DNA from: Candidatus Hydrogenedens sp.
GTDB taxonomy: Bacteria; Hydrogenedentota; Hydrogenedentia; Hydrogenedentales; Hydrogenedentaceae
Reading direction: 5' to 3'
Assembly: GCA_049968235.1 (NCBI GenBank)
Contig: JBMFRC010000001.1
Location: 32,001-96,000, forward strand
DNA: 64,000 nucleotides
In this document: in pieces, positions 13,147-40,935 of the stretch
How the letters are laid out: each line of letters begins with the position of its first letter
Numbering within the stretch: position 1 is the first letter of the stretch
Notes under the pieces: generated by a model
The model's database searches: none
What the model was told of the DNA's origin: nothing
The model's input: only the letters and a program-made list of their open reading frames with translations
Program-made: the position numbers and the translations under genes

Positions 13147-13763
13147 GTTAAATCTAAAATACCTACGAATATTGTTATCACATTCCTTAATGCATAAACA
13201 AAAATAAATACAGGAAACAGTATAAGATATGCTAAATACAGGAGCAAATTATCTTTGCCCCGAATATAGCACAAGCATTTATTCCTTCTTTTGCAATTAT
13301 AAGTGGTGCGATTATTTTAATTTATCAGAGTAATACAATTATCCTGCTTTTGATAAATTCAATTTATTAATTAGCACCGGCATTTCTCTCTTTGCTTTTT
13401 ACCACGAATGGTGCGAGATGTAAATAAGCATAAAGTATTTATTATAGCAAATGATTATTCGCCATTACATAGAGATGCACTTGCCATGCAGGCGGGTTTT
13501 TGGAATGTGTTGGTAAAAATCGTTTCTGTCTGGCAGGACTTTCAGCAAGACAATGAGATAATTTTCACCACGGAGGACACGGAGGGACACATAGATATTT
13601 TTTTCTTATCACAGAAAGCACGGAGAACACAGAGAAGGGAACAGAGAATAGGTATGAGTATGGATATATTTATTCTATGATTTATATTCTCCTTTCCTTT
13701 TTTCTCTGTGTTTCTCTGTATTCTCTGGGGTGGAGTATTTTTTTTCTCACCACAGAGAGCACT

Positions 13764-14021
13764 ATCTTTTCTTGTTAATGACTGCATATAATTTGAAGTG
13801 GATATATGAGGAATTAAGGGGGCAAAAGGAGAAGTATGCATAGGTAACCAAAAGATAAAAATACTCACAGAAAATAACAAATAAAATGGGTAAAAGTAGG
13901 GATACAGACTTTTGTATTTTAATTTTTCATCGGGATTTTATCTCATAAAAACATGTATAATTTATACTCTTACCTCTTACCTCTTACCTCTTACCTCTTA
14001 CAAAAATTGTTCAGAGGTCTC
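13764..14021. repeat. ~250-bp repeated intergenic element, copy A; sits in the leader position 3' of cas2
   Basis: Aligns at ~85% identity with 40693-40926 (…tcttgttaatga(c/t)tgcatataatttgaag…ggaattaaggg…gcaaaaggaga…atgcatag…acaga…ttgtattttaattt…attttatctcataaa…aattgttcagaggtctc). Ends 10 nt before the cas2 stop codon. Confidence 0.8.
13967..14001. repeat. Microsatellite (CTCTTAC)x5 inside element copy A
   Basis: Five perfect tandem heptamers. Copy B has unrelated sequence at the corresponding position. Confidence 0.9.
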
Positions 14022-14031
14022 GTGTATTTTT

Positions 14032-14358
14032 TTATACTATAATAAGGTTGGGGTTTGAGATGGGTGTATAGTAGTTTAGTCCGTTTCTGTTGATAATTTT
14101 GATTTTATTTGCATCAGCATGGCAAAGGGGTATGATATGTATAATAAGTTGTCGGTTTTGGTCATTGGGTTGTTCGTTGGAGAGGTAATCACGAATGGTT
14201 TCCTGTAGTTTTTCGATAAGGAGTTCTTTTTCATATTCATCGAGGTCGCCCATGAAAACGGAGAATTGTATGTGCGAAGTTCCTACTTCTTCGAGGAGGT
14301 AGGTTATTTTGTTTCGTAGTTTATCGTTTCCTATGTCGAATAATAGTAGTGTTTGCAT
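14032..14358 (-). CDS. cas2: CRISPR-associated endoribonuclease Cas2
   Basis: MQTLLLFDIGNDKLRNKITYLLEEVGTSHIQFSVFMGDL… fits the canonical Cas2 N-terminal beta1-Asp/alpha1/beta2 pattern. 108 aa. Confidence 0.75.
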   Translation of the reverse strand: MQTLLLFDIGNDKLRNKITYLLEEVGTSHIQFSVFMGDLDEYEKELLIEKLQETIRDYLSNEQPNDQNRQLIIHIIPLCHADANKIKIINRNGLNYYTPISNPNLIIV

Positions 14359-14371
14359 AGGTTGATTTGTG

Positions 14372-15340
14372 TTATAGGTTGTATTTATTTTGTTGATTTA
14401 GGGTTTGTGTTAGTTTTATGGCTGCGAGCAGGATGTGTTTTTGGTAGTTGGTATTGGGGTCTTTGGGGGTAGGTTCATAGAGGCGTTCTATGTAAAGGGA
14501 GGAGAGTTTTTTTGTGTTTCTTTTTCGAGTAATCCGTTTTTCTGGAGTTGTACATTTATTCCTTGTCGTATGTAAGCGAGTAAGGGTGTATCGATGAGGG
14601 GTTGACGGAAAGGTTCGATAAAGAAGACGAGGGACTGTTTGTTGTTCTGTAGGGTGTGCAGAAACCCTGCATATGGGTCGAGTCCGGCGAGGGTTAAGGC
14701 ACGGAAGCATTCGGAGTAGAGGATGCCGTAACCGTAGTTGAGTGCAGAATTGACGGGGTCTTTCGAATGTCGGTGTGTTCTGTGGGTAAAGTTATAATTG
14801 GCTGGGATAAGTTGTTTGAAATATGACCAGTAGATGGATGAGGCGTGTGCTTCGGTGGACATGATTTGTTGTTTTGCGTGGGATATATTTTCAGTGTTGA
14901 TGGATTTTAATTTTTCGATGAGTGGGTAAATAGTATTGTGAAGTGTATCTTCGATTTGGGCTAAGTATGTTTTGTATCGACACAGGAATTAGAATTGGTT
15001 TTCGATTTTTGTTTGTATGTATTTTTTTGGCAATTTGTATGCCTAAGCCGTTCTGGATGGCTGTGTATTGGTTCCATCGGTTCTGGATATGGGGGTGATT
15101 GTATATAGGCTGGATAAAAGTGATGGAGTTCCCGTAGGGCTTACATACGGTTAAGGCGATGTCTTGCTGGCTTGCGAGTGAAAGTGCTTCAGCGGAGATG
15201 GAAAATCCTTGGGTGAAGATGATGATGTGTGAGAGTTTGCTGGATGGGATTGTTTTAAGGGTTTTGTTTTCGCCGATAATTTTGAACATGTTTTTGTGTC
15301 TACCGACACGGATATTCTTTTCAATAAGGATGAGATGCAT
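14372..15340 (-). pseudogene. cas1: cas1 pseudogene (two or more frameshifts)
   Basis: N-terminal fragment 14891-15340 (MHLILIEKNIRVGRHKNMFKIIGE…GFSISAEALSLASQQDIALTV… fits the Cas1 N-domain). Middle fragment 14488-14862 in another frame (…DPVNSALNYGYGILYSECFRALTLAGLDPYAGFLH…SLVFFIEPFRQPLID… fits the Cas1 catalytic core). C-terminal remainder in a third frame. Total span about 323 codons. Confidence 0.7.
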
Positions 15341-15461
15341 GTTAAAGTCCTCCTCTTCATTATTTTTATTACATCTAACCTTAAAAAGTTGTATTATTTG
15401 CTATGTATTTAGTCCCAATCAATTTCGAGTTTGAACCAACCCATAGGAAGGGATGCCTTTG

Positions 15462-16643
15462 TTATTTTTTTTGTGATGTAGTTAATTTATGAGACTTTGG
15501 ATAAGGTATTTGGTCAGAACATCTGTCTCTCTTTGCTTTTCCCCATTTTTTGTCATTTGTATCTCCTTGTGAAAATAGTAATGTTATAGTTTTTGATAAA
15601 GAACCTGTGCCATAACCTAATTGTAAAAATATTTTTTTGCCTCTTTCTATCCTAATATCTTCAGGGATGTCATATTCATTTTTATTTACAGAATTAAAGA
15701 ATTCCAGTTGTTTATCAATTAAAATTTCTGAGTATTTGCGTAAACAATCTTGAAAACTCTGTGTATCGTTAAGAACATTTTTAAGATATTTTATCTATTC
15801 TCCGTTATTATATTTATATTCATCCAACATAAATTTTAATGCTTGTTGGTCTAAATAGAAATCTATAATTATTTCTTTACCTTTAGGAATCAGGCATTCA
15901 GCAAATATATCAAATGGTTTAGTTGAAAATTTGTCTCCATTTTTACTTTTTACTTTTATTTGACATATTCCAAAATTGTCGATAGGAATCTCTTTAGAGT
16001 CTCTGATTACTAAAAATTTAAATAAATCATATTTTGCATCATAATTCGAATTATCTACTTCTAATGTAGTATATTTTTCTATATTTTTATTAAGGAGAAT
16101 ATTATTAATATTATTTGACTCTTTAATTAAACAATTAGTGACTGCATTTCTTATACATCCCTTTATACTTGAACCTGGAATAAAAAATTTCCCAAATGGG
16201 TATTTTATAAAGGAAAGGATTGGAGGAAGAGAAGTAGATTCTTGACATATAGATTTTGACTGAGAATTTTGGGATTGTTTTTTCTCAACTTGTTTCTGTA
16301 TTTTTCTTAGTTCTGGAGGAAGTGCTGTATGTTTAGGCGATATGGACCTTGATTGTTTATTTGTTTTTTCTCCTCTTGTTCCAAAATCAGCATATATAGG
16401 AAGAGAATAGCGAATATATTCAGGGTCGGGACGAAAGGAGGGTTCTTCAATAATCTTTAAATCAGTTTCATAATCTTCGCAATTATCCTGAAAATATTTC
16501 ATGACATCTTTTAGACAGAATAATAGCTGTTTCTCGTCAATGTCAATGTAATATTCAAAATTCTGATATTCTTCGCCATCTGATATATGGATGGGAGTGA
16601 TAGGTGTTAGTTTGAATTTGCCATGTTTCTTTTTATCGTTCAT
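15462..16643 (-). pseudogene. csm5: Type III RAMP, Csm5-like (Cas7 group), interrupted by an in-frame TAG
   Basis: The N-terminus MNDKKKHGKFKLTPITPIHISDGEEYQNFEYY is Csm5-like. RAMP glycine loop IPGSSIKGCIRNAV. ORF stops at TAG 15795-15797. The same frame continues for 110 more codons (IKYLKNVLNDTQSF…ERGKKIFLQLGYGTGSLSKTITLL…) and contains a G-rich motif. AAGGAG lies 8 nt upstream of the ATG. Confidence 0.65.
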
Positions 16644-16656
16644 TGTTTTTCTCCTT

Positions 16657-17595
16657 TTAAGGATGTTTGAAATAGATATTGAATGCGAGACCGGAACGCC
16701 AGATAGGATGAGGTGATGAGTCGTAACTGATGGCGATTACATCCCCCTTAGGCATTTCTTTGATAACAGGGAATTTACTTCCTTCTATACACATACGAAC
16801 AGATTGTTTGGGTTCATCATACCCGGCAATGCCATGTATCCACCCACCTCGCATAGTGCATTCATAAGATGCGATATTGGTGAGAATACCATTTTCAAAT
16901 TCTTCCAAAGTAGGATGATAAAGACTGAGTATTGCGGGACTGAGTATTGCGGTAGCTTTTGGTGGACTTTCCTGCCCACTTATTTTGAGCGTATCATTTT
17001 CTTCAATAATATATTTTGATTCGAAAGGTTCAATTTTTTTATAGTAAAATGTCCGAAACCTAAACTGCGTTCACCACCAATACCCAGTTTACCCAAAGCG
17101 GATAGAAAATTGACAAATGATTCTTTTTTCTCTTCTTCTAATTTAACAAAAAACCACAATCCGACATCTTCTTCGCTATTTATCTCATAAAAATTTTGAG
17201 GGTAGGCTGTAGTTTGATTAGTAACCCGGTCAATGACGGTGGAAATTTTATAATTTTCTTTAACGGTTTTTTTGGAGGGGAAACCTTCTTTATTATTTAT
17301 CAGGTCATTCATTTCTTCATTCAGGAGAAAAGTTGTTCCTGGATTCTCTTCATCACCGTCTAAATAGGGATAATCTTCTTTTTTTTGGGAAAAGTTCTTT
17401 TAATATTTGCTGGGTTTCTTCTGCTTTTTGGAATATTGATGAAGTGGTTAGAAGAATGACATTATCAAAATCACCAATGTTAACAGAAGAAATAATCGGC
17501 CCCTATTGTGTTCCACCGGTGGGTGCTTCATCTACTCTCCCGTAAGGGTCATTTGTTCCTACAAAACTTAACAGTAGAGAAGATTTCCTCCCCAT
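16657..17595 (-). pseudogene. csm4: Csm4-like (Cas5 group) RAMP pseudogene, three frameshifts
   Basis: Segments: MGRKSSLLLSFVGTNDPYGRV…, then …GPIISSVNIGDFDNVILLTTSS…KELFPKK. Next the track's 110-aa ORF (…EDVGLWFFVKLEEEKKESFVNFLSALGKLGIGGERSLGFGHFTI), whose G-rich loop and context closely parallel Csm4. Then …KKIEPFES…MEEFENGILTNIAS… up to the stop at 16657. Two of the frame changes coincide with A8 and A7 homopolymers. A 15-bp tandem duplication lies at ~16926-16955. Confidence 0.5.
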
Positions 17596-29328: not shown

Positions 29329-29404
29329 TTTAAAAAGTTGGACAAATTAGACAAGTCGGAAATATCGGACTTGTCGGACAAGTCGTTCATATCTGAGGGA
29401 GGTA

Positions 29405-38547: not shown

Positions 38548-38696
38548 TATTTTTTTGCATGAAATTTACTAATGGTTTATGATAAAAAATATAGATTGGA
38601 TATGTTAGTTGTCTGACAAGTCGGATAGCTCGGATGAGTCAGACCTGTAGGATAAAGTGGATTTAATTAAGAGTTAAAATATAAAAGGATTGGATT

Positions 38697-40223
38697 ATGA
38701 GTTATGTAATTGGTATTGATGTAGGAACCAGTGGAACAAAAATCGTTGCTATAAACGAAGAAGGGAAAGTAGTTGCATCTGTTATGAAAACTTATGATTT
38801 GCATAGTCCTAAACCGGGTTGGGCAGAACAAAATCCACATGATTGGAAGAAAGCGGTATTTGATGGACTATCCGAAATTTGTCACCAGATTAACGGACAG
38901 GATGTCCGTGCTATTGGCTTAACAGGACAGATGCATGGTTCTGTTTTTTTAGATGAAAAAGGGGATGTTTTATATCCTGCGATTTTATGGTGTGACCAGC
39001 GAACAGCCAAACAATGTGAAAAGATTAATGAAATCGTCGGGGAAAAGAAACTTCTGGAAATGGTATCCAATCCTGCTTTAACAGGATTTACCGCTCCGAA
39101 AATTCTGTGGTTAAGAGACGAGGTTCCGGAGGTATATAAGAAAGTAAAGCATGTTCTGTTACCGAAAGATTATATCCGTTATGAACTTACTGGAGAATTT
39201 GCTTCAGATGTAGCGGATGCTTCGGGAACATTACTTTTTAATGTCAATAAACGGTGCTGGCATGAGGAACTTTTAAGCAAATTGGATATACCTGTTGCAT
39301 GGTTACCTAAAGTTTATGAAGGTACAGAGGTTACAGGTAAAATAAAATCTTCTGTTGCAGAGCAACTGCGTTTATCTCCGGATGCGGTTGTTGTTGCAGG
39401 TGGAGGCGACCAGTCTGCAGGAGGTGTAGGTTGTGGAGTTGTCCGTTCGGGGATTGTTTCTGCTTCTCTGGGAACAAGTGGTGTCGTTTTTGCATTTGCG
39501 GAACATGTTCATACGGACCCGGAAGGGCGTGTTCATACTTTCTGCCATTCTGTTCCGGGAGCATGGCATGTAATGGGCGTCATGTTAAGTGCAGGGGGTT
39601 CTCTTCAATGGTTTCGAAATAAACTATGTAAGGAGGAGATTGAAAAATCAAAAGAAACAGGTATTGATACTTATGAATATATTACAGGACCGGCGGGAAA
39701 AGTTCCTATTGGCTCGAATGGCTTGATTTTCCTTCCCTATTTAACCGGGGAACGTACTCCCCATAAAGACCCCTATGCAAGAGGTGCTTTTATAGGCTTG
39801 TCTTTGATGCATGGGAAAACAGAAATGGCAAGGGCTGTAATGGAAGGGGTTGCTTTTGGTATGCGAGATAGTGTTGAGATTATGAGGGGAATGGGAATAC
39901 CCATTAATGAGGTTCGTATATCAGGTGGAGGAGCACGGAGTAGTTTGTGGAGACAAATAATGGCTGATATATGTAAAGTTCCTATGATAGTTATAAATGT
40001 GGATGAAGGGCCTGCCTTTGGAGCAGGTTTGTTAGCAAGTATTTCGGCGGGGATATTTACATCTCTTTCGGAAGCATGTGAAAGTATCATCAAGGAGTTG
40101 CACCGAGTAGAGCCTAATCCACAAAGCAGTGAGGAATATGAATTCTGGTACCAGGAATATAGGTCGGCATATTTATCCATTGCACCTGCTTTTAGAAGAA
40201 TTGGGAAAAAGTTAGAAGGATAA
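38697..40223 (+). CDS. xylB: Xylulokinase (FGGY carbohydrate kinase family)
   Basis: MSYVIGIDVGTSGTKIVAINEEGKVVAS…GWAEQNPHDW… plus FGGY N- and C-domain motifs. 508 aa. Confidence 0.85.
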   Translation: MSYVIGIDVGTSGTKIVAINEEGKVVASVMKTYDLHSPKPGWAEQNPHDWKKAVFDGLSEICHQINGQDVRAIGLTGQMHGSVFLDEKGDVLYPAILWCDQRTAKQCEKINEIVGEKKLLEMVSNPALTGFTAPKILWLRDEVPEVYKKVKHVLLPKDYIRYELTGEFASDVADASGTLLFNVNKRCWHEELLSKLDIPVAWLPKVYEGTEVTGKIKSSVAEQLRLSPDAVVVAGGGDQSAGGVGCGVVRSGIVSASLGTSGVVFAFAEHVHTDPEGRVHTFCHSVPGAWHVMGVMLSAGGSLQWFRNKLCKEEIEKSKETGIDTYEYITGPAGKVPIGSNGLIFLPYLTGERTPHKDPYARGAFIGLSLMHGKTEMARAVMEGVAFGMRDSVEIMRGMGIPINEVRISGGGARSSLWRQIMADICKVPMIVINVDEGPAFGAGLLASISAGIFTSLSEACESIIKELHRVEPNPQSSEEYEFWYQEYRSAYLSIAPAFRRIGKKLEG

Positions 40224-40692
40224 AGAATTTTTTTATATATGAGGCCTCTGAATAAAACATATACGATAAATAGTATATGAAAGTTTATATACAGGAAGGA
40301 TAAGGGAAAAAATGAAACGAAAGATGTATATATTTCACAAAAGGAATAGGTTAATTACACAGTAAAGAAAAAGTTAAATGGAGAAAGGTAAATGTGCGGT
40401 ACAATGAAAGAGGTAAAGCAGATGAGGTTTTTAGATTATGCAGTATCAAAACAGAAACCGACATGATGAGAGAAATAATTGAAAGTGATGCCAGAGATAA
40501 CCCTGTGGGAGAAATTGAAATGTAGATGAGTAGAGGGGAGTGTATAAATAAAACTGGGGATAGCGAAGGAGGTTTGTCCTTACTATTTTATGCATTGTTA
40601 ACCAGTGAGTGATGATTTCTTTTTGTTCTCTGTGGTTGATTATGTTTTTTACATTACGGAGAACACGGAGAGGCTCAGAAAGAGGAGTATAT

Positions 40693-40926
40693 CATTTCTT
40701 GTTAATGATTGCATATAATTTGAAGCGGATGTATGGGGAATTAAGGGAGCAAAAGGAGAGTTATGCATAGATAATAAAAAAATAAAAGAACTGACAGAAA
40801 ATAATAACCGAAATGGGTAAAGGTAGAAATACAGACTCTTGTATTTTAATTTCGTATGGGAATTTTATCTCATAAATAATTTATAATTTATACCCTAACC
40901 TTTTGCACGAATTGTTCAGAGGTCTC
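40693..40926. repeat. ~250-bp repeated intergenic element, copy B
   Basis: ~85% identical to 13764-14021 and ends with the same aattgttcagaggtctc. Lies between the convergent xylB and the 764-aa gene. Lacks the (CTCTTAC)5 tract. Confidence 0.8.
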
Positions 40927-40935
40927 AAATATTGT

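What the first reader, a model, noticed from the sequence alone, without database searches (positions are those of the whole stretch)
13764..14021. ~250-bp element 3' of cas2 in the leader position, duplicated 26.7 kb away with no cas genes (copy B 40693-40926)
The two copies align over ~235-250 bp at ~85% identity and share the 3' end aattgttcagaggtctc. Copy A starts 10 nt after the cas2 stop, exactly where a leader and first repeat would be. Copy B lies in a convergent intergenic region between xylB and a 764-aa gene. Candidates: a conserved CRISPR leader left behind after array loss (copy B marking a second lost array), a MITE-like mobile element, or a small RNA gene. It contains an internal AAGGAGA-N5-ATG followed by an immediate stop.
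Basis: seen in the sequence. Interest (0 to 1): 0.6.

Follow-up and report, generated by a model that had tools for sequence, protein, structure and literature searches.

The report
Transposon-like repeat beside decayed CRISPR locus
The ~250-bp duplicated sequence is most likely one end of a small non-coding mobile element (MITE-like) rather than a CRISPR leader or RNA gene; one copy sits beside a decaying CRISPR locus and the other is a recent insertion between two ordinary genes, so the finding is ordinary.

Summary
The duplication is real: 13763-14021 and 40690-926 align at 84.8% identity (201/237), with a 22-nt gap from a (CTCTTAC)5 microsatellite in copy A. Both end in the identical 17-mer AATTGTTCAGAGGTCTC, 10 and 9 nt after a minus-strand stop codon.

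It is not a conserved CRISPR leader. Relatives (Candidatus Hydrogenedens) with intact type III-A loci and arrays have unrelated leaders. At the copy B site, five related genomes (about 85% DNA identity) have only 11-46 nt between the same two convergent genes, where the window has 712 nt.

That insert (40241-40926, 686 bp) has imperfect terminal inverted repeats, GAGGCCTCTGAATAAA and GAGACCTCTGAACAAT (2 of 2000 shuffles match as well). It has no recognisable ORF, no Rfam hit and no excess RNA structure. Copy B is one end of this insert. Copy A has only that end plus similar hairpins, next to a cas1 pseudogene, an intact-looking cas2 and a single degenerate repeat remnant.

The same 17-mer is the tip of the inverted repeats of ~270-310-bp MITEs in a Campylobacterales MAG.

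No further copies, no transposase partner and no clear target-site duplication were found. Verdict: a MITE-like element, a new member of a known kind, low interest.

The parts
13763..14021 (.). Copy A of the shared core (259 bp). The terminal-inverted-repeat end abuts cas2. There is no second inverted repeat, so this is a one-ended or truncated copy.
   Evidence: Alignment with copy B at 84.8% identity. The only other TIR-like 16-mers (up to 3 mismatches) in 231 kb of Hydrogenedens DNA are the two ends of the copy B insert. Sister strain L118 (99.6% identical) has the same cas2-element junction.
14005..14021 (-). Terminal 17-mer, read outward as GAGACCTCTGAACAATT. It is the tip of the inverted repeat.
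   Evidence: Identical in both copies. The same 17-mer is the tip of the 33-34-nt TIRs of ~270-310-bp MITEs in a Campylobacterales MAG.
13967..14001 (.). (CTCTTAC)5 microsatellite inside copy A.
   Evidence: TRF score 70, 100% matches. Absent from copy B. Six units in sister strain L118.
13566..13762 (.). Cluster of hairpins built from CACGGAGA/CACAGAGA motifs, adjoining copy A.
   Evidence: RNA fold -50.1 kcal/mol, z = -4.76. Inverted repeat 13623-13652 / 13696-13725. In the 64-kb window such motif clusters occur only beside the two copies.
13528..13562 (-). Probable degenerate CRISPR repeat, the last remnant of the array.
   Evidence: 20/22 match to the 5' half of the relatives' repeat GTTTATCTCATTGCCCTGCTGAAAAAGGGATAGAAAC. 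Score 36 against a maximum of 27-32 in five shuffles, but an equal chance hit lies inside dxs. 85% identical to L074 20580-20613, which begins right after the last residues of L074's cas1 that align to intact Cas1. Support is moderate.
14032..14358 (-). cas2 (108 aa, full length).
   Evidence: Pfam PF09827, E = 5.5e-10. 69-76% identical to the Cas2 of intact type III-A loci.
14372..15340 (-). cas1 pseudogene (frameshifts and an internal stop).
   Evidence: Pfam Cas1 hits on two separate ORF fragments. tblastn with intact Cas1 of relatives shows three frame changes and a stop.
40241..40926 (.). Complete 686-bp insert bounded by inverted repeats. It contains copy B.
   Evidence: L117 aligns to the window up to 40223 and from 40942 onward, with 29 nt in between. 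L070, L071 and L072-75 have 11-46 nt there. Ends 40235-40255 / 40912-40932 are 86% complementary over 21 nt. The best 16-mer match between the ends is 14/16, reached by 2 of 2000 shuffles.
40241..40256 (+). Distal inverted repeat, GAGGCCTCTGAATAAA.
   Evidence: 13/16 identical to the reverse complement of 40911-40926.
40690..40926 (.). Copy B of the shared core (237 bp), ending in the proximal inverted repeat at 40910-40926.
40618..40689 (.). Hairpin of CTCTGTG/ACGGAGAACACGGAGA motifs adjoining copy B.
   Evidence: Fold z = -1.76.
40257..40617 (.). Internal part of the insert that is unique to copy B.
   Evidence: No similarity to the copy A region or to the cas loci of relatives. No Pfam match of note in six-frame pieces. 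No Rfam match.

Best explanation
The repeat is the proximal ~240-260 bp of a small, non-coding mobile element of the MITE kind, bounded by terminal inverted repeats, in a Candidatus Hydrogenedens genome. That end consists of the inverted-repeat tip GAGACCTCTGAACAATT plus subterminal sequence and a CACGGAGA-type hairpin.

Copy B is a complete 686-bp element (40241-40926) with both inverted repeats. It inserted into the ~25-nt spacer between two convergent genes, xylB and the last gene of a sugar ABC operon.

Copy A is a one-ended copy lying 10 nt after cas2, in the place of the former leader of a type III-A CRISPR locus. That locus is decaying: the effector genes are deleted or fragmented, cas1 is a pseudogene, and the array is reduced to one degenerate repeat.

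Shown: the duplication, the insertion polymorphism at copy B, the inverted repeats, the lack of coding, Rfam or structural signal, and the lack of similarity to real leaders.

Inferred: movement by a transposase supplied in trans that recognises GAGRCCTCTGAAYAA ends, and loss of copy A's distal end, perhaps in the same deletion that removed the array. No effect on the host beyond occupying intergenic DNA is shown. The hairpins could act as terminators for the upstream genes, but this is untested.
For: 1. Empty sites. Five related genomes with the same gene order have 11-46 nt where the window has 712 nt (L070, L071, L072-75; L117). L117 aligns at 85% DNA identity over 16 kb, with breakpoints at 40223 and 40942.
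2. The insert ends are inverted repeats: 21 nt at 86% complementarity, and 14/16 in the best 16-mer window against 2 of 2000 shuffles. The flanks left over (17 + 9 nt) fit the spacer length in relatives.
4. Both copies end at exactly the same base of an identical 17-mer, and similarity stops there.
5. In a Campylobacterales MAG the same 17-mer is the outermost part of the 33-34-nt TIRs of MITEs whose arms lie 205-248 nt apart, present at least 7 times.
6. It is non-coding. All six nucleotide differences in the + frame of the best-conserved block are non-synonymous, and 8 of 9 in the 20-aa ORF are (my reading). There is no Pfam hit, no Rfam hit and no fold excess.
7. It carries an internal microsatellite that varies between strains, 5 versus 6 units. 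This is known for MITEs such as BrickBuilt (PMC4596501).
Against: - Only two copies were seen. The source genome outside the window could not be read, and the 17-mer scans of genome, metagenome and viral collections found no other copy.
- No autonomous element or transposase with these ends was found.
- No clear target-site duplication exists at copy B, where the flanks are TATATAT and AAATATT. None is consistent in the Campylobacterales elements either.
- Copy A has one inverted repeat only.
- The two copies share only about 300 of the 686 bp, so the insert at B could be composite.
- The 17-mer identity with the Campylobacterales MITEs does not extend further and could be coincidence.
Confidence: 0.68

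Rival explanations
1. It is a relic CRISPR leader. The element would be the conserved leader of this type III-A system, left after array loss, and copy B would mark a second lost array.
For: Copy A lies between cas2 and a degenerate repeat remnant, in the leader position. It is AT-rich, as leaders are.
Against: Leaders of relatives with arrays (L062, L069) carry a TTGACT-17-TATACT promoter and conserved blocks, and they give no BLAST match to the element. The element is separated from the remnant by about 200 nt of hairpins. The copy B site is an 11-46-nt spacer in five relatives, so no array ever stood there. No repeat-like sequence scores above the best shuffled window, and the nearest weak gapped match lies inside xylB. 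The insert has inverted-repeat ends.
Confidence: 0.04
2. It is a small RNA or 3'-UTR regulatory module. The core would be transcribed, either as a 3' extension of the upstream gene ending at the hairpins or from its own promoter on the + strand (TGCATATAAT), and would act as an sRNA or antisense RNA.
For: Both copies start 9-10 nt after a stop codon, in the same orientation relative to the upstream gene. In that orientation both are followed by a stable hairpin. An extended -10-like TGCATATAAT and an AAGGAGA-N3-ATG are conserved in both copies, by my reading.
Against: There is no Rfam family. Folding is no better than shuffles on either strand of either copy. The promoter scan found no conserved sigma-70 site inside the core. 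Two sequences give no covariation test. This reading does not explain the inverted repeats or the insertion polymorphism, and a MITE can still be transcribed.
Confidence: 0.1
3. It is a non-transposon repeat: a REP/REPIN-like or recombination-spread intergenic repeat, or a segmental duplication. On this reading the inverted ends are fortuitous or belong to a hairpin-forming REP family.
For: No target-site duplication and no transposase were found. In the Campylobacterales MAG the same motif also occurs as bare palindromic pairs and as a solitary copy in a 13-nt spacer between convergent genes, which is REP-like behaviour. Hairpin clusters accompany both copies, and one occurs in the leader of L062.
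Against: A discrete 686-bp insert with inverted ends between genes that are adjacent in five relatives is what transposition predicts. The copies are 26.7 kb apart with unrelated flanks.
Confidence: 0.15

Closest known systems
Bacterial MITEs (miniature inverted-repeat transposable elements), e.g. Neisseria Correia elements and the Porphyromonas gingivalis 'BrickBuilt' MITE (PMC4596501)
   Same: Small (under 1 kb), non-coding and intergenic, with short terminal inverted repeats and presence/absence polymorphism between related genomes. It also carries an internal tandem repeat whose unit number varies between strains. BrickBuilt similarly carries a minisatellite between 'leader' and 'tail' subunits with small inverted-repeat ends.
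   Different: Only two copies were seen, one of them one-ended. No target-site duplication was resolved and no parent IS was identified. There is no sequence similarity to those families.
MITE family of the Campylobacterales MAG HLG_WM_MAG_12 (CACVAW01; loci L001, L006, L013, L014, L022, L030)
   Same: The outermost 17 nt of the inverted repeat are identical (GAGACCTCTGAACAATT). In both cases similarity ends at exactly this tip. Flanks are A/T-rich.
   Different: Nothing beyond the 17 nt is similar. Those elements are ~270-310 bp with 33-34-nt TIRs. They come from a different phylum. The shared motif could be chance: about 24 unrelated chance hits to the 17-mer were found in the same scan.
IS and MITE insertions in CRISPR-cas loci (Nat Commun 2023, PMC10359306)
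   Same: A mobile-element sequence sits inside a CRISPR-cas locus that is no longer functional. That paper reports natural IS and MITE insertions within cas genes.
   Different: Here the element lies in the cas2-array interval, not in a cas gene. The locus shows several independent lesions (cas1 frameshifts, loss of cas10/csm2/csm3), so the element need not be the cause of inactivation.
CRISPR leader sequences
   Same: Position immediately downstream of cas2 and upstream of a repeat remnant, and A/T-rich composition.
   Different: It is not similar to the leaders of the closest intact loci. It does not abut the repeat. The second copy is an insertion at a site with no CRISPR history.

Membership tests
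MITE (non-autonomous TIR transposon) | Small size and no coding capacity | tested here: met
   686 bp (copy B) and about 260-450 bp (copy A with hairpins). ORFs are 81 aa or shorter with no credible Pfam match. Substitutions between the copies are mostly non-synonymous.
MITE (non-autonomous TIR transposon) | Terminal inverted repeats at both ends | tested here: met
   Copy B insert: 40235-40255 / 40912-40932, 21 nt at 86%, with 2 of 2000 shuffles as good. Copy A has one end only.
MITE (non-autonomous TIR transposon) | Target-site duplication flanking the element | tested here: inconclusive
   The flanks TTTTTTTATATAT | AAATATTGT give no clean direct repeat. The A/T-rich context prevents a call. 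The Campylobacterales copies are inconsistent.
MITE (non-autonomous TIR transposon) | Insertion polymorphism (filled versus empty orthologous sites) | tested here: met
   Five empty sites: L070, L071, L072-75 and L117.
MITE (non-autonomous TIR transposon) | Multiple copies per genome | tested here: inconclusive
   Two copies in 64 kb. The sister-strain contig ends inside the element 89 nt after cas2, which could reflect a repeat or microsatellite heterogeneity.
MITE (non-autonomous TIR transposon) | A related autonomous IS with matching TIRs that supplies the transposase | tested here: not met
   None was found in the window, in the fetched loci, or in the plasmid, phage, genome, metagenome and viral scans. 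The searches were limited to exact 17-mer matches, so absence is weak evidence.
CRISPR leader | Lies between the cas operon and the first repeat and directly abuts that repeat | tested here: not met
   Copy A is downstream of cas2 but about 200 nt of hairpins separate it from the only repeat remnant. Copy B has no repeat nearby.
CRISPR leader | Sequence conserved with the leaders of arrays that have the same repeat type in related genomes | tested here: not met
   No BLAST similarity to the cas2-array intervals of L062 and L069.
Structured small RNA | Thermodynamically stable or conserved secondary structure, or a match to a described family | tested here: not met
   z-scores of -0.86, -0.81, -0.05 and +0.03. 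No Rfam match.
Structured small RNA | A discrete transcript with its own promoter and terminator | not testable with these tools
   No expression data are available. Consensus scans found nothing conserved inside the core.

The most novel reading that the evidence does not exclude
The GAGACCTCTGAACAATT end may define a previously undescribed, cross-phylum family of inverted-repeat elements, found in Hydrogenedentota and Campylobacterales. Its transposase is unknown. It would insert preferentially a few bases after stop codons and bring hairpin terminators with it. Its arrival next to cas2 could then have displaced the leader and helped silence the CRISPR locus.
Probability: 0.12. Interest if true: 0.35.

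Novelty: new member of a known kind. Interest (0 to 1): 0.15.

Why it matters
The importance is limited. The result removes a tempting but wrong reading, an orphan CRISPR leader marking lost arrays. It adds one example of a small mobile element sitting in a decaying CRISPR-cas locus of an uncultivated phylum (Hydrogenedentota), whose repeats have hardly been described. If the shared 17-nt end with Campylobacterales MITEs reflects a common transposase, it would point to an uncharacterised IS family. That remains unshown.

Tried and rejected
- Exact-pattern scans with the terminal 17-mer gave chance matches only. They covered genome contigs (31 loci), metagenome contigs (41 loci) and viral contigs, plus the 16-mer TGCATATAATTTGAAG in viral contigs. 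The exception was the Campylobacterales MITE ends.
- BLAST of the element and the whole insert against plasmids and phages found nothing.
- I used the 112-aa spurious ORF across the element as bait in the 5.8-billion-protein and 1.84-billion-representative protein searches, to catch miscalled copies elsewhere. Neither search gave a hit.
- Exact look-ups of three window proteins failed because the source genome is not retrievable.
- I looked for a second inverted repeat near copy A and found none within 3 mismatches. A weak 72% match over 43 nt between 13201-13243 and 40254-40296 has E = 0.05 and was judged noise.
- I tested whether the unique part of the insert derives from cas DNA, because its minus strand is similarly G-poor. 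No homology was found.
- I tested whether the L006 17-mer was the end of an IS. The adjacent ORFs are an AIR-synthase-related gene and an ABC transporter, not a transposase.
- The conserved 20-aa and 2-codon ORFs were rejected as genes. Nearly all substitutions are non-synonymous and there is no family match.
- The last contig look-up (L119) ended inside the 764-aa gene, so it did not show copy B in the sister strain.

Full report
**Observation.** The duplication is real. Window 13763-14021 and 40690-40926 align on the same strand with 201 matches, 36 mismatches and one 22-nt gap, giving 84.8% identity. The gap is a (CTCTTAC)5 microsatellite at 13967-14001 that is present only in copy A. Conservation is uneven: the terminal AATTGTTCAGAGGTCTC is 17/17, the far block 13763-13830 is 91%, and the rest is 65-86%. 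Similarity stops abruptly after ...GAGGTCTC in both copies. On the other side it fades (about 76%) over about 38 nt into a hairpin of CACGGAGA/CACAGAGA motifs. No third copy lies in the window. On the minus strand, copy A begins 10 nt after the cas2 stop and copy B 9 nt after the stop of a 764-aa gene. The internal motif is AAGGAGA-N3-ATG-CAT-TAG, not N5 followed by an immediate stop.

**Context of copy A.** The source is a Candidatus Hydrogenedens MAG. Its Cas2 is 100% identical to NCBI MGC8737043.1 on a 421-kb contig. The neighbouring ORFs are Cas2 (intact, 108 aa), two Cas1 fragments and fragments of Csm4 and a RAMP protein. Relatives whose Cas2 is 69-76% identical carry complete type III-A loci: RtcR-cas10-csm2-csm3-csm4-csm5-cas1-cas2 (L058, L064, L067). 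tblastn with their Cas1 shows that the window's cas1 has several frameshifts and a stop. The locus is therefore decaying.

In L069 an array with the repeat GTTTATCTCATTGCCCTGCTGAAAAAGGGATAGAAAC starts about 570 nt after cas2. L062 shows a first repeat about 800 nt after cas2. The window has no array. It does have one degenerate repeat-like stretch at 13528-13562 on the cas strand, which matches the repeat's 5' half at 20/22. This scores above five shuffles, but an equal chance hit lies in dxs, so on its own it is only suggestive. It is also 85% identical to a stretch in the relative L074, which begins right after the last residues of L074's cas1 that align to intact Cas1. I take it as the remnant of the array, with moderate confidence.

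Copy A lies between cas2 and this remnant, followed by about 200 nt of very stable hairpins (z = -4.76).

**Is it the leader?** No. The cas2-to-array intervals of L062 and L069 contain a strong TTGACT-17-TATACT promoter and blocks conserved between them. BLAST finds no similarity between them and the element.

**Context of copy B, the decisive evidence.** The 764-aa gene has no family match. It is the last gene of a sugar ABC operon (binding protein, then permease) and converges on xylB. Its orthologues at 83-89% identity were located in related genomes with the same gene order. There the two stop codons are 22 nt (L070), 11 nt (L071) and 46 nt (L072-75) apart. A further genome, L117 (GCA_035378955.1), aligns to the window at 85% DNA identity over 12.3 kb and 4.0 kb. 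Its alignments stop at window 40942 and 40223, and it holds 29 nt where the window holds 718. The window therefore carries a lineage-specific insert.

The ends of the insert are inverted repeats: GAGGCCTCTGAATAAA at 40241-40256 and GAGACCTCTGAACAAT as the reverse complement of 40911-40926. They are 13/16 identical, or 86% over 21 nt if the adjoining bases are included. A match as good as the best 16-mer window (14/16) between the two 45-nt ends arose in 2 of 2000 shuffles. The 17 + 9 nt left outside the repeats fit the spacer length of the empty sites. Copy B is thus the proximal 237 bp of a 686-bp insert bounded by inverted repeats.

**Content of the element.**
- Six-frame pieces of the insert have no credible Pfam match.
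- The ORFs that are conserved between the copies differ almost only by non-synonymous changes (from the translations).
- Rfam finds nothing, at gathering or permissive thresholds.
- The core folds no better than shuffled sequence on either strand.
- The CACGGAGA-type hairpin clusters occur in the 64-kb window only next to the two copies, so they travel with the core. One similar cluster lies in the leader of L062.
- The 361 bp between the hairpin and the distal repeat in copy B have no counterpart near copy A or in cas loci.

**The Campylobacterales lead.** The 17-mer scan of 596 Gb of genomes returned about 24 unrelated chance matches and seven matches in a single Campylobacterales MAG. In that MAG the 17-mer is the outermost part of the 33-34-nt inverted repeats of elements whose arms are 205-248 nt apart. 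It also occurs as bare palindromic pairs and once alone between convergent genes. Similarity to the window ends with the 17 nt. The same 17 bases form the extreme tip of an inverted-repeat element in both places. I judge this more likely than not to be meaningful, reflecting a shared recognition site, but it is not proof.

**Further copies.** None were found. The metagenome and viral scans, the plasmid and phage BLAST, and the protein searches using a spurious ORF as bait were all empty. The source genome beyond the window could not be retrieved. A sister strain (L118, GCA_049969095.1, 99.6% identical over 4.76 kb) has the same cas2-element junction, with six instead of five microsatellite units. 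Its contig ends inside the element. This confirms that the junction is not an assembly artefact, and it hints at a repeat or at microsatellite heterogeneity.

**Interpretation.** The best explanation is a MITE-like non-autonomous transposable element. Copy B is complete. Copy A retains one end, and its other end may have gone in the deletions that removed the array. Movement by a trans-acting transposase is inferred, because no partner IS and no clear target-site duplication were found.

The rivals are:
- a REP/REPIN-like or otherwise non-transposon repeat, which is not excluded;
- a transcribed 3'-UTR or sRNA module, for which there is no positive evidence;
- a relic leader, which is contradicted.

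The case resembles known bacterial MITEs, including one with an internal minisatellite (BrickBuilt, PMC4596501). It also fits reports of IS and MITE sequences within CRISPR-cas loci (PMC10359306). It is a new member of a known kind and of low general interest.

Noticed in passing
window 14032-17312 (minus strand): This is a decayed type III-A CRISPR-cas locus. The CoA-binding gene is followed directly by Csm4 fragments, a 282-aa RAMP protein (relatives have 424-448 aa), a frameshifted cas1 and an intact cas2. RtcR, cas10, csm2 and csm3 are present in relatives L058, L064 and L067 but missing here. The relative L074 shows a different decay state, with cas1 cut after codon ~164 and cas2 absent.
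   Followed up: partly
window 14032-15340; L058 8956-10267; L064 and L067 cas1-cas2: The coding strand of cas1 and cas2 is strongly G-poor and C-rich (G 11-13%, C 23-31%). The GC skew is about +0.5 on the opposite strand. The same holds in intact relatives, whereas the adjacent csm genes are normal. This is a family-level compositional oddity of the adaptation module, not a decay effect.
   Followed up: partly
L062 2900-3350 and L069 3000-3430 (cas2-array interval of relatives): The leaders of relatives contain a near-consensus promoter (TTGACTTTAAA...TATACT) about 400 nt upstream of the first repeat. It is followed by blocks conserved between the two genomes, including a CGACCCT...AGGGGGGTC hairpin. 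This may be a conserved non-coding transcript or regulatory region ahead of the array.
   Followed up: no
L001, L006, L013, L014, L022, L030 (Campylobacterales MAG CACVAW01): This is a multi-copy MITE or palindrome family with TIR GAGACCTCTGAACAATTATAGTGGTNCATAG. It occurs as ~270-310-bp elements, as bare back-to-back inverted pairs, and once alone in a 13-nt spacer between convergent genes.
   Followed up: partly
window 13967-14001 versus L118 4720-4765: The (CTCTTAC)n microsatellite inside copy A has 5 units in the window and 6 in a 99.6%-identical sister strain.
   Followed up: yes
window 29332-29388 and 38615-38644: There are short tandem 9-nt units (AAGTCGGAC / GACAAGTCGGA). The second set lies in the intergenic region just upstream of xylB. 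Similar GTCGGAC repeats occur near the CRISPR remnant of L074 (20505-20525).
   Followed up: no
L061 and L063 contig ends; L062 2769-2850: Several independent assemblies of a related genome break exactly at the start of a CACAGAGAACACAGAG... hairpin in the leader. This suggests the hairpin motif is a multi-copy repeat in that genome, although it is rare in the loci fetched here.
   Followed up: partly
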